Source of the DNA: Trypanosoma brucei
Lineage: Eukaryota
Reading direction: 5' to 3'
Assembly: GCA_000002445.1 (NCBI GenBank)
Contig: CH464491.1
Location: 4,704,001 to 4,768,000, forward strand
DNA: 64,000 nucleotides
The position numbers are program-made. Below are positions 9,001-12,000 of the stretch, in pieces; position 1 is the stretch's first letter, and every line of letters starts with the position of its first letter.

Positions 9001-12000
9001 GCGGCTGAATTAAATAGAAACGATATATAGATATATAGATACATAAAGCTGAGACCTGGTATTAAAATGCAAATTAGGCCCCTAAATTACGCAACCGTTC
9101 GTAAAAATTCACAGAATAAACAAAATGAACGGCGCAAATATTAAGCAGCTCAGCCCACCATCTTGGCGGAGGGAATAACAGAAACAGGAAAACGGCGTCT
9201 AAAGTGATCAGGTCATCGTAAAAACACATAAGCCGAAATGAAAACAAGTATACTTTCCTGGCGTCGCTAGCGGCATTCAAATGAGAGGCTCATTGACACG
9301 GTCAAGAGCGGAAACGACACAAACACCAACAGCGCCAAGTCTCACCTATAATAGCACCGAAAATTCACTATAAAGAAGACCTCAAAAATACGCACGAAGA
9401 TACGTGCGGTGCAAGCTCCGTCAGATATCCAAAAGCAGCTCGATAGTAGCGTCCCATAACAACCATACAACCTTTTCCACTGCCTTTAAAACTAACTTAA
9501 TGAAGAACTAACCTAAGTAAGCAAGCGAAACAGACAGCCGGCCAATTCTCACATTAATTGTAGCATCTGCGCTTATAATAAACCACAATAGCAGAATAGC
9601 TGCGGCAGCAGCACAGGGAGCAGTGCACCTCACAGCACTAACATAACTTTGCAAAACAGCCAAAGCTGGAAAAACTGTGGCGGCTTTGCTAACAAACAGA
9701 ATATCCAAGATGACAGGTTGGGAAGCAGAATATAGTCTTTTTTTCCAAAAAATAGCGACCGTGCAGGTCATGGAAATGCAGCCTTCAACGTAACTAGCGG
9801 CACTCAAAGAATTCGCGAACAAGACCCTCAGCGCCATCGAATCGGAGTTAGAGGAGCTTGAAAAAGAAGCTCCAGGAACCAGAAGCAAAACAGCATACGC
9901 AGCGGGCCTAATTGACGATTTCGTATCTATTTTCACAAGCACCGGAGACAGCACAGGTACCAACAACGTCTACATAATTAAGGGCGGCAGCGACGATACG
10001 AAAGTCGAGGATTCCGATCTCGGTGATTGTTTCGCCAAACCAATTAGAGCCAAAACAACAAATGACAAACTATCAACTCTGGAAAAAGATAGCTTTAACT
10101 TCGGAAACAAGCAAGCGTTGAAGGGAACCAAGACGTGCAAACTAACTAGCAGCGACGGCGGCGGCTATTCGGGCGGAACAGTCGGACGACTGAAACCAGC
10201 AAGCTGGGGCGGCGGTGTACTTACACTAACTCACACAGGCAGCGAAGCAACACTAAAAACGGAAAAAAGCGGCCTAGCAGCACACGAAGAAGCAAGGAAA
10301 TCAGCCGCCACAATCAAAAGCAAAATCAAAACCGACGAAAACAATCCTGTAACAACCACACAAGACCTGAAAGCGCTACTAATAGCATACTCGGCAGACA
10401 AAACAATCCTAACTACAATAAAGATAGCAACTAACAAGCTAAAGGACAAAGGCTATACACCAACTCGCACAGACGTCGAAAGGATATTCGGCTTCAACGG
10501 CAAACACGAGAATGTACCCTTCATCAAAATCCTGGATAAATACAAGGTACCGATACAAGAGAGCTCGCAAACAAAGCAAACAGAAGTCATGAAACTGACG
10601 GCAACCCAAATTGCAGAAGGCAAAAGATAACCACTGGGCCAATACCAGCAACTCGTCGCCAAAGCGCAGGTTGAAAAAGTCTGCGAGAGCACAGACAAGA
10701 AAACAGCAGAGGATACTTGCAATAAGATCACGGATACAAGCGAACGCAACAACAAGCCTTAGTGCAGTTATAACGAAAGCACAGCTGAGTGTGACAAAAA
10801 GTGCAAATTTAATGAAAAAACCTCAAAAAGCGGAGTGCCTGCAACGCAACATCAAACAGGAGGGACTGAAACAACATCAGAAAATGCAAAGGGAAACCAG
10901 AGAAAGATTGCAAATCTCCGGATTGTAAGTGGGAAGTAAAAGAGTGCAAATATTCCATTTTTTGTCAATAAGAAACTTTCTTTAATGGCTGCTGCTTTTA
11001 TGAGTTTTGTGGCATTTTAGCATTCTAAGGGGTTGTGCTCAATTATATGAAAATTATGAAAATTTTCTATTTTGAGAGAACTTTATAAATTTGCTACACT
11101 TTGATATGTTTTGACACTTTTGGAAAAGTGTAAATTTTTAAAATACGAATTTTTGTATGATGGTGGCTTATGGGTGAAAAGTAGAAAAGCAACAGGGTGA
11201 CAGGGTATAAAAAATAAGTGATATTCCAATTTTCTTTATTGATTATTTTGTTTATTTCATGGATATTAGTAATTAAAATAATAGATATAATGACAATAAT
11301 AATGATTATAAGAGAGTGTTGTGAGTTTGTGTATACTAATATTATGTTAAGATTTCTTCTGAAGACAAAACAGACAACGAAAGATAGAAGTGCCTAAGAT
11401 ACTGGCACCAGTGCAGTTGGAGTAGGTGAGTAAGGAAGTCGGAATGCGAAAGCGCGAGTAATATTATGAATAAGCAACGTAAAAAGGAAATACATGGAGG
11501 AAAATGAAATATGCAGAGCTTCGTCCACAAATATGAACCTGATAATCTTTATAAACTATAATGTAATGAAGGAACACTAAGGGTGAGCCGTAGTCAAGTG
11601 CACATGCGTAATAGAGTCAGTATGTAACCCGTATGGATTAAAAAAGTTGTCGGAGAAGAGGGAAAGAAAATGTAAGATGAAACAACAAAATGTGAAATAA
11701 TATATCAGTAAAAAAAGAAGTATGAGTCAATGATGCCTAGTGTTTTATTTAAAAATGGATAGATAGCACAGCGTAGATTATTTTTGTGGCTGTGGTTTTT
11801 AATCTGATGGAGGATCCTAATGTTCAGAGGTAAAGAAGAAAGAGGACGTACGGATTGGGTGAGTGTGATGTATTGTCAAAGTCTTCTGTTCTTCATATAT
11901 AGTAATAATGGCTAACACTTGTGGGAAACATTATAATATTATGTATAAAAAAATTTTAAACTATGATTACTAATAGATTACTGTGGAAAGGAAAAGAAGA

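What the first reader, a model, noticed from the sequence alone, without database searches (positions are those of the whole stretch)
11790..11940. Conserved ~150-bp block about 400 bp downstream of the 70-bp repeats in the + array
Related sequences occur after at least six of the 70-bp tracts (2320-2440, 5590-5660, 8330-8480, 11790-11940, 15040-15100, 23920-23975). They share TTTTTAATCTGATGG(A/C)GGATCCTAATRTTCAG and AGTCTTCT..TCA.ATATAGT.ATAATGG..AACA. This is outside the repeats and outside the coding region. It may mark the upstream boundary of the VSG conversion cassette or a processing signal.
Basis: seen in the sequence. Interest (0 to 1): 0.5.

Follow-up and report, generated by a model that had tools for sequence, protein, structure and literature searches.

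The report
Conserved upstream flank of VSG cassettes
The block is real. It is the best-preserved stretch of a ~1-kb non-coding flank that follows the last 70-bp repeat in most silent trypanosome surface-antigen (VSG) gene cassettes, so the "co-transposed region" usually called unique to each gene has an old shared half, with no sign of a function of its own.

Summary
The window is a Trypanosoma brucei TREU927 subtelomeric VSG array.

- **Sites.** All six listed sites are homologous, with profile E-values from 1e-95 to 7e-3. There is one more + strand site. Two full copies lie in the - array as reverse complements.
- **True extent.** The 150-bp block is not an island. It is the crest of a ~1,060-bp flank that starts 8-19 bp after the GT-rich end of the last 70-bp repeat. 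The flank always has the orientation of the VSG.
- **Modularity.** About 27 of 33 cassettes examined carry part of the flank. Nine carry all of it.
- **Unique part.** The stretch next to each VSG start codon cannot be aligned between cassettes.
- **Nature.** The block has no ORF, no consensus RNA structure, no Rfam match, and no similarity to the 70-bp repeat, VSG or ingi.
- **Divergence.** Copies are about 53% identical to one another, whatever the VSG type or the position in the array.
- **Constraint.** Well-conserved columns evolve about half as fast in independent pairs (p=0.001). The block as a whole does not evolve more slowly than the unique part.

Best reading: an old, passively inherited proximal half of the co-transposed region, with at most weak constraint. 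It is not the cassette boundary. A processing signal remains untested.

The parts
11191..11341 (+). Last 70-bp repeat unit(s) before the flank. The GT-rich core is at 11314-11331.
   Evidence: GAGTGTTGTGAG-type core. Multi-copy repeat segment 10870-11355. The sequence was read directly.
11342..12388 (+). Full copy of the ~1,060-bp conserved flank (proximal co-transposed region) that contains the finding.
   Evidence: nhmmer E 1.7e-206 over profile positions 2-1057. The spacer, block and post-block segments are each significant when this copy is left out of the profile.
11704..12092 (+). The block: the best-conserved ~350-390 bp of the flank.
   Evidence: Mean pairwise identity is 0.55-0.59, against 0.50-0.53 before it and 0.445 after it.
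11796..11827 (+). Motif 1 (TTTTTAATCTGATGGAGGATCCTAATGTTCAG). It is the last element shared with the short cassettes.
11878..11915 (+). Motif 2: a short pyrimidine run, then AG, then ATATAGTAATAATGG. It occurs in full copies only.
12916..14340 (+). Intact A-type VSG served by this flank. The 528 bp between the flank and the ATG cannot be aligned with other cassettes.
   Evidence: Pfam PF00913, E 6e-98. Translation. No similarity among the VSG-proximal stretches.
1859..2895 (+). Full flank copy. The block is at 2248-2597. It lies upstream of an A-type VSG pseudogene (3288-4582).
7925..8913 (+). Full flank copy. The block is at 8251-8646. It lies upstream of an A-type VSG pseudogene.
36496..37557 (-). 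Full flank copy in the - array. The block is at 37175-36793.
51783..52830 (-). Full flank copy in the - array. The block is at 52466-52077. It lies upstream of an intact B-type VSG (51324-49852).
5201..5642 (+). Short flank (profile positions 2-492): spacer plus motif 1 only.
14629..15071 (+). Short flank (profile positions 1-464) with motif 1 only. It lies upstream of a B-type VSG (15579-16946).
20706..21206 (+). Short flank (profile positions 5-481) with motif 1 only.
23522..23955 (+). Short flank (profile positions 5-473) with motif 1 only. It lies upstream of a B-type VSG pseudogene.
27002..27418 (+). Flank that stops before motif 1 (profile position ~440). The unrelated F2 element follows at 27801-28943.
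49017..49451 (-). Flank that stops before motif 1. F2 follows at 48552-47697.
45107..45375 (-). Flank, profile positions 1-286 only. F2 follows at 44708-43662.
61703..61968 (-). Flank, profile positions 1-272 only. It lies upstream of a B-type VSG (60280-58922).
17720..17931 (+). Only the distal part of the flank (profile positions 700-913), 354 bp after a 70-bp repeat. This is the deletion variant that lacks the block.

Best explanation
The block is the best-preserved core of an old, non-coding flank of about 1 kb. [quoted passage not shown]

The flank starts in register at the tail of the last 70-bp repeat, always points the same way as the VSG, and is copied with the gene whenever a cassette is duplicated (shown).

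I infer that the 70-bp repeat plus this flank spread as one unit onto VSG genes of both N-terminal types. It became joined to gene-specific upstream sequence at different points, which gave the nested set of full, short, very short and internally deleted versions. Since then the copies have decayed independently to about 53% identity, with no recent homogenisation.

The flank has no product of its own. In a silent array it is passenger DNA. After conversion into an expression site it would be part of the VSG precursor RNA and be discarded (inferred from what is published about co-transposed regions).

This allows weak constraint on a few short DNA or RNA signals, but nothing makes the block as a whole special.
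For: **Homology and extent**
- Significant homology at all sites, on both strands, and in four external loci.
- Homology extends over ~1,060 bp, shown by leave-one-out profiles.
- Every copy that keeps the 5' end starts 8-19 bp after the GT-rich core of the last repeat.

**Modularity**
- Copies are modular, with recurrent end points at profile positions 270-300, 430-445, 458-496 and ~1,050.
- A recurrent variant carries profile positions 1-150 plus 700-1,050 and lacks the block.

**Not a gene or an RNA**
- Stops in every frame, and most indels are not multiples of three.
- RNAalifold predicts 0 base pairs on either strand.
- No Rfam match at E up to 1.
- No similarity to the 70-bp repeat, to itself, or to VSG or ingi proteins.

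**Pattern of divergence**
- Identity is flat: median 0.53, 5th-95th percentile 0.49-0.59.
- It is the same within and between VSG types (A-A 0.52, B-B 0.53, A-B 0.53; p=0.62) and for adjacent against non-adjacent cassettes.
- VSG-proximal stretches cannot be aligned.
- Between syntenic arrays L002 and L004 the flank and the VSG are duplicated together. The block diverges by 0.122 substitutions per site. That is no slower than the unique part (0.06-0.077) and slower than the VSG coding sequence (0.165-0.195).

**Weak constraint**
- 87 invariant columns against 45 expected (chi-square p=2e-25).
- Columns conserved in the other copies differ at 5.7% against 10.9% in three independent pairs (p=0.0013).

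**Literature**
- The co-transposed region is transcribed only as part of the precursor and gives unstable RNA (PMC8051951, PMC5698767).
Against: - If both halves of the co-transposed region were equally old and neutral, the VSG-proximal half should be as alignable as the flank. It is not. Either the two halves have different histories (my inference) or the flank is constrained more than I allow.
- The very narrow range of pairwise identities looks like a plateau. A plateau could reflect a balance of mutation and selection rather than one old burst of copying.
- Site-rate heterogeneity is real and survives a control for A/T against G/C columns.
- The sample is about 33 cassettes from one window and four loci of closely related taxa. 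No expression-site, metacyclic or minichromosomal VSG could be examined.
Confidence: 0.6

Rival explanations
1. The conserved islands, including motifs 1 and 2, are cis-acting signals used once the cassette sits in an active expression site. One option is a trans-splicing and polyadenylation signal that processes the long precursor downstream of the 70-bp repeats. Another is a protein-binding element that stabilises expression-site transcription.
For: - Conserved columns evolve about twice as slowly in independent pairs, and invariant columns are in excess.
- Pyrimidine runs of 7 or more bases are rare in the flank (1-2 per copy). They recur at two aligned positions, profile ~549 (followed by AG, within motif 2) and ~750.
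- Motif 1 survives in cassettes where the sequence around it has been replaced or interrupted by an insertion: L002 1949-2050 and L005 3720-3782.
- Disrupting the VSG 221 co-transposed region is reported to induce rapid switching (Davies 1997, as cited in PMC2900300 and PMC8612549).
Against: - Only about half of the cassettes carry motif 1 and about a quarter carry motif 2. A recurrent variant lacks the whole block.
- The number of pyrimidine runs is what this base composition predicts, and C/T exchanges within them are the commonest neutral change.
- The pyrimidine tract is short (7-13 nt) and lies 0.6-1 kb from the ATG.
- The block as a whole is not slower than the unique part in the L002/L004 comparison.
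- There is no conserved RNA structure.
Confidence: 0.17
2. The flank is kept because it serves as extra 5' homology for recombination. Array cassettes have only one or two 70-bp repeats, so 0.5-1 kb of shared sequence next to them would help pairing, or would set where conversion tracts resolve.
For: - The flank is contiguous with the 70-bp repeat and shared by about 80% of cassettes.
- The nested end points look like recombination junctions.
- 70-bp repeats are shown to promote access to archival VSGs (PMC4858185).
Against: - Copies are only about 53% identical, with no long identical stretches. That is well below what homologous recombination in T. brucei uses efficiently (PMC1904282 reports dependence on substrate length and homology).
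- There is no sign of recent exchange: apart from cross-assembly syntenic copies, no pair of module-1 copies exceeds 62% identity. VSG 3' ends in the same window do show pairs of 82-95%.
- Identity is not highest next to the repeat.
Confidence: 0.13
3. The block is the remnant of something that once had a product: a decayed gene, a retroposon fragment, or a small RNA or peptide gene.
For: It is a dispersed multi-copy sequence with a fixed orientation. One copy carries a 21-codon ATG ORF after motif 2 (read).
Against: - No reading frame is shared between copies, and the consensus has stops in all six frames.
- tblastn with VSG and ingi proteins finds nothing in the flank.
- No Rfam match and no consensus structure.
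- It is never found away from a 70-bp repeat.
Confidence: 0.04
4. The resemblance is a by-product of purine-rich, A/T-rich base composition and not true homology.
For: The sense strand is 57-65% purine and 27-39% G+C. nhmmer reports sizeable composition-bias corrections.
Against: - E-values reach 1e-200 after bias correction.
- Leave-one-out hits fall at the expected place and strand in every cassette.
- Shuffled controls give no matches.
- Specific non-repetitive motifs recur in the same order.
Confidence: 0.01

Closest known systems
Co-transposed region (CTR) of T. brucei VSG cassettes
   Same: - It occupies the interval between the last 70-bp repeat and the VSG start codon, in the sense orientation.
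- It is duplicated together with the gene (L002/L004).
- It is non-coding.
   Different: The CTR is described as unique to each VSG cassette (PMC2900300; called 'unique sequences' in PMC5698767). Here only the VSG-proximal 0.25-0.8 kb is unique. The repeat-proximal 0.3-1.06 kb belongs to one diverged family found in about 80% of the cassettes sampled.
70-bp repeats upstream of VSGs
   Same: Both are conserved non-coding elements on the 5' side of nearly every cassette. The flank begins in register with the tail of the last repeat unit.
   Different: The flank is not tandemly repeated and has no detectable similarity to the repeat unit. It is far more diverged between cassettes (about 53%).
Conserved VSG 3' elements (C-terminal domain, 3' UTR 16-mer/14-mer region)
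   Same: Both are shared flanking homology on a side of the cassette, present whatever the N-terminal type.
   Different: The 3' elements have a demonstrated role in mRNA stability (PMC8051951, PMC5698767). They also show recent exchange between cassettes in this window (82-95% identical pairs). The 5' flank shows neither.
Trypanosome trans-splicing and polyadenylation signals (polypyrimidine tract plus AG)
   Same: Motif 2 contains a short pyrimidine run followed by AG, on an otherwise purine-rich strand.
   Different: The tract is short and interrupted in several copies. It lies far from the VSG start, and its use is untested.

Membership tests
VSG co-transposed region (CTR) | Lies between the last 70-bp repeat and the VSG start codon, on the VSG strand. 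| tested here: met
   All copies start 8-19 bp after the GT-rich core of a 70-bp repeat and lie upstream of a VSG or VSG pseudogene on the same strand.
VSG co-transposed region (CTR) | Copied together with the VSG when the cassette is duplicated or converted. | tested here: inconclusive
   Syntenic arrays L002 and L004 share flank plus VSG as one 6.3-kb segment at 86% identity. Conversion into an expression site could not be examined.
VSG co-transposed region (CTR) | Sequence unique to each VSG cassette (as stated in PMC2900300). | tested here: not met
   The repeat-proximal 0.3-1.06 kb is a shared family. Only the VSG-proximal remainder is unique.
70-bp repeat | Similarity to the ~70-76-bp unit (TAA/TGA-rich tract plus GT-rich core) and tandem arrangement. 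| tested here: not met
   The local alignment score of a repeat unit against the flank is below the shuffle mean (22 against 24±3). The flank has no internal repeat. Tandem Repeats Finder reports nothing in the block.
Trans-splicing acceptor / coupled polyadenylation signal | Polypyrimidine tract followed by an AG that is used for spliced-leader addition. | tested here: inconclusive
   A pyrimidine run of 7 or more bases sits at profile position ~549 in 5 of 9 copies, and is interrupted in the others. An AG follows within 2-10 nt. The number of such runs is what chance predicts for this composition.
Trans-splicing acceptor / coupled polyadenylation signal | Mapped spliced-leader or poly(A) sites in RNA. 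| not testable with these tools
   No RNA data are available here.
Structured non-coding RNA | Conserved secondary structure, covariation, or a match to an Rfam family. | tested here: not met
   RNAalifold gives 0 pairs on both strands of 9 copies. Rfam gives no match at the gathering threshold over the window or at E up to 1 over 11300-12950.
Protein-coding gene or pseudogene | A reading frame shared between copies, or similarity to known proteins. | tested here: not met
   The longest stop-free stretch is 38-85 codons, in varying frames and strands. 52 of 73 gap runs are not multiples of three. The consensus has stops in all frames, and there is no tblastn hit to VSG or ingi proteins.
ingi/RIME retroposon | Similarity to the ingi copy in the window, or occurrence away from cassettes. 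| tested here: not met
   The flank profile has no hit in 29000-35000, and no hit anywhere that is not next to a 70-bp repeat.

The most novel reading that the evidence does not exclude
The short conserved islands of the repeat-proximal co-transposed region are cis-elements that act in the active expression site. Candidates are motif 1 (TTTAATCTGATGG...), motif 2 (TCAGATATAGTA...), and two further islands about 117 and 183 bp after the repeat. They might bind a factor or act as a processing signal that keeps transcription of the telomeric VSG stable. Their loss would then explain why disrupting the VSG 221 co-transposed region triggers rapid switching. That effect has had no sequence-level explanation since 1997.
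Probability: 0.12. Interest if true: 0.65.

Novelty: new member of a known kind. Interest (0 to 1): 0.33.

Why it matters
The co-transposed region is routinely treated as unique, single-copy sequence. It is used as a specific probe, as a qPCR target for VSG precursor RNA, and as an "insulator" in models of VSG recombination (PMC2900300, PMC8051951, PMC5698767).

Its repeat-proximal half turns out to be a diverged family shared by most cassettes. This has three consequences:
- It gives a new landmark for annotating cassette structure and the history of the VSG archive. Flank versions mark lineages independently of the fast-evolving coding region.
- It shows that the 5' flank and the VSG have separate histories.
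- It supplies a short list of conserved positions that make the old co-transposed-region deletion phenotype testable at sequence level.

If the flank is only passenger DNA, the result is ordinary: a well-behaved relic of how cassettes were built.

Tried and rejected
**Ideas tested on the sequence and rejected**
The family is too diverged for pattern matching, so profiles were needed.
- Pairwise BLAST of whole intervals sees only the block. That wrongly suggests an isolated island. Leave-one-out profiles corrected this.
- Structured RNA: rejected.
- Coding sequence or pseudogene: rejected.
- Derivation from degenerate 70-bp repeats, or from an internal duplication: rejected.
- Purine richness as a special property of the flank: the whole cassette sense strand, VSG included, is 55-65% purine, so this was dropped.
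- Flank version tracking VSG type: full flanks mostly precede A-type VSGs, but two precede B-type genes (w 52830, L005 5961), and short ones precede both types. Module-1 identity does not depend on type.
- Local homogenisation between neighbouring cassettes: rejected.
- The block evolving more slowly than its surroundings on a recent timescale: rejected.

**Searches that led nowhere**
- Expression-site sequence: the one expression-site VSG tried is not in the contig index, and the window's own A-type VSG look-up also failed.
- Literature: Marcello & Barry 2007, Aline 1985 and Campbell 1984 are not held. I cannot exclude that the shared flank was described there.
- Forced alignment of shuffled sequences, meant to calibrate an identity floor, gave no usable columns.
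Full report
**What the window is**

- Pfam finds A-type and B-type VSG domains in the long ORFs.
- One VSG is 100% identical to a T. brucei brucei TREU927 protein on a 5.26-Mb contig. Another is identical to a T. equiperdum protein.
- The + strand carries an array of about nine cassettes (1-27,400). The - strand carries about eight (35,000-64,000).
- The two arrays converge on an ingi-like retroelement (endonuclease, reverse transcriptase, RNase H) at about 29,200-35,000.
- Each cassette has the expected order. First come 70-bp repeat(s) with the GAGTGTTGTGAG core. An upstream interval and the VSG follow. The cassette ends in a 3' element of the TGATATATTTTAACAC type.

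**Check of the observation**

- BLAST of 11340-12850 against the window finds four related segments, at 64-72% identity: 8297-8590, 2299-2552, 37157-36892 (-) and 52270-52181 (-).
E-values run from 1e-95 to 7e-3.
- Leave-one-out profiles give 1.6e-20 to 9e-53 for each full copy.
- The same profile finds copies in unrelated arrays from T. equiperdum OVI and assembly GCA_003543875.1.
- The literal consensus strings are too strict. Each matches only once within three mismatches.
- The second motif is absent from the three short sites.

**The block is not an island**

- A multiple alignment of 2 kb around seven full copies shows raised identity from the 70-bp repeat to about 300 bp past the block.
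- Leave-one-out profiles are significant in every copy for the 390-bp spacer (E 3e-11 to 5e-32) and for the 300-bp post-block stretch (E 9e-8 to 2e-13). The stretch next to the VSG gives nothing in six of seven copies.
- A 1,060-position profile of the whole unit then maps the family across the window and four independent loci.
- Every copy that keeps its 5' end starts 8-19 bp after the GT-rich core of the last repeat. That point is the tail of the repeat unit, ATTATAATAAGAG.

**Modularity**

Of roughly 33 cassettes, about 27 carry part of the flank. They fall into these versions:

- Nine carry all of it.
- About seven stop at profile positions 458-496, just after motif 1.
- Several stop at 430-445, before motif 1, and continue into an unrelated repeated element (F2).
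- Several keep only positions 1-150 or 1-300.
- A recurrent variant joins positions 1-150 or 1-300 to 700-1,050 and so lacks the block.

These versions are documented. The 240-780 bp next to each start codon shows no similarity between cassettes.

**What it is not**

- Not a structured RNA. Nine block copies (alignment A1) give no consensus structure on either strand. There is no Rfam match, even at E up to 1.
- Not coding. No frame is shared, the consensus has stops in all six frames, and most gap runs are not multiples of three.
- Not related to known elements. There is no similarity to VSG or ingi proteins, to the 70-bp repeat, or to itself.

**How it evolves**

- In profile-aligned columns, mean pairwise identity is 0.53 and 0.51 in the two halves of the spacer. 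It is 0.59 around motif 1, 0.55 in the rest of the block, and 0.445 after the block. The block is a crest and not a plateau.
- Among 24 copies of the first 490 positions, identity is remarkably flat: median 0.53, 5th-95th percentile 0.49-0.59. The only closer pairs are cross-assembly syntenic copies.
- Identity does not depend on whether the two VSGs are of the same N-terminal type (0.52, 0.53 and 0.53; p=0.62). It does not depend on adjacency in the array either (0.52 against 0.51).
- VSG 3' ends in the same window include pairs 82-95% identical. The 3' side therefore shows recent exchange, and the 5' flank does not.
- Two syntenic arrays (L002 and L004, 86% identical over 6.3 kb) give substitutions per site across a cassette:

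| Segment | Substitutions per site |
|---|---|
| Spacer | 0.079 |
| Block | 0.122 |
| Post-block | 0.127 |
| Unique upstream stretch | 0.060-0.077 |
| VSG coding sequence | 0.165-0.195 |

On this timescale the block is not protected relative to other non-coding DNA. The coding region evolves two to three times faster than any flank. The window against L004 shows the same trend.

- Sites within the flank are not equal. There are 87 invariant columns against 45 expected under a uniform star model (p=2e-25).
- Columns that are at least 80% conserved among all other copies differ at 5.7% in three independent recent pairs. The remaining columns differ at 10.9% (odds ratio 0.49, p=0.0013). The effect persists among A/T columns alone.
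- The best-conserved islands are at profile positions 117-126, 183-190, 456-464 (motif 1) and 558-569 (motif 2).

**Interpretation**

The flank is shared at the same distance by A-type and B-type genes, whose coding regions share no nucleotide similarity. Its downstream end differs from cassette to cassette, and the sequence beyond that end is unrelated. From this I infer that the repeat plus flank spread as one unit onto VSG genes that already had their own upstream sequence. The junctions fell at different points, and the copies have since decayed independently.

This makes the block the distal part of the longest version of the unit. It is passenger DNA in the arrays. After conversion into an expression site it would be part of the discarded precursor RNA. 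Published work says co-transposed regions are present only in the precursor and yield unstable transcripts (PMC8051951, PMC5698767).

The site-rate heterogeneity leaves room for weak constraint on a few short signals. The only concrete candidate I can point to is the short pyrimidine run plus AG in motif 2, with a second run near position 750. The number of such runs is what this composition predicts.

- "Upstream boundary of the conversion cassette" is not supported. The block lies inside the cassette, and the 5' limit is placed in the 70-bp repeats (PMC2900300, PMC10691351). Motif 1 does mark where the short cassettes stop sharing sequence with the full ones.
- "Processing signal" is untested.

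**Comparison with what is known**

The element sits in the co-transposed region. That region is described as unique to every cassette, with the reason called unknown (PMC2900300), and its disruption is reported to provoke rapid switching (Davies 1997, cited in PMC2900300 and PMC8612549).

In the full-text library I found no description of a shared repeat-proximal module. The 1980s flank-sequence papers and Marcello & Barry 2007 are not held, so prior description cannot be excluded.

I therefore rate it as a new member of a known kind, namely conserved flanking elements of VSG cassettes. Interest is modest.

**Limits**

- About 33 cassettes from closely related taxa were sampled.
- No expression-site, metacyclic or minichromosomal copies were available.
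- No RNA or chromatin data were available.
- The constraint test rests on three paralogous pairs.

Noticed in passing
window 27801-28943 (+), 43662-44708 (-), 47697-48552 (-); also L002 ~5123-6057 and L003 8775-9691: A second upstream-flank family (F2) of ~0.8-1.1 kb, 75-83% identical between copies. It forms a sharp, much better conserved island between the ~50%-identical first module and the unalignable VSG-proximal stretch. Window copies have many stops and no long ORFs. Where the downstream gene was typed (two window copies and L002), it is a B-type VSG. Its identity is unknown.
   Followed up: partly
window ~29245-34964 (-) and 35006-35326: An ingi-like non-LTR retroelement (endonuclease, reverse transcriptase, RNase H) sits where the two arrays converge. 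It abuts a VSG 3' fragment that is 95% identical to 58494-58814.
   Followed up: partly
L002 11624-17889 against L004 2425-8727; window 12253-14380 against L004 1-2079: Between syntenic or paralogous arrays, VSG coding sequence diverges two to three times faster (0.165-0.195 substitutions per site) than every non-coding part of the cassette (0.06-0.13).
   Followed up: partly
24 copies of the first ~490 bp of the flank (window and L002-L005): Pairwise identity is flat at about 0.53 (0.49-0.59), whatever the VSG type or the adjacency in the array. This looks like a plateau and is not fully explained by simple neutral decay.
   Followed up: partly
L003 14241-14949, 8695-8018 (-), 4801-4158 (-), 717-22 (-); window 17366-17931; L002 11661-12331; L004 2462-3137: A recurrent internally deleted flank version (profile positions 1-150 or 1-300 joined to ~700-1,050) has near-constant spacing from the repeat. 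This suggests a cassette sub-lineage that expanded after one deletion.
   Followed up: no
L002 830-1025 with 1949-2050; L005 2580-2859 with 3720-3782: In two cassettes the motif-1 region is separated from the start of the flank by about 0.9 kb of extra sequence, yet remains recognisable about 370 bp upstream of the VSG start in L005.
   Followed up: no
window 5049-5168 and 39923-39993: A perfect (TAATAG)20 tract takes the place of the usual TAA/TGA-rich part of a 70-bp repeat. A (GT)35 tract lies upstream of the A-type VSG at 39338-38022.
   Followed up: no
window 10859-11017 against 55784-55945 (-); 14227-14393 against 37832-37995 (-): VSG 3' ends and C-terminal regions from different arrays are 75-82% identical while their N-terminal regions are unrelated. 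This is consistent with exchange of 3' ends between cassettes.
   Followed up: no
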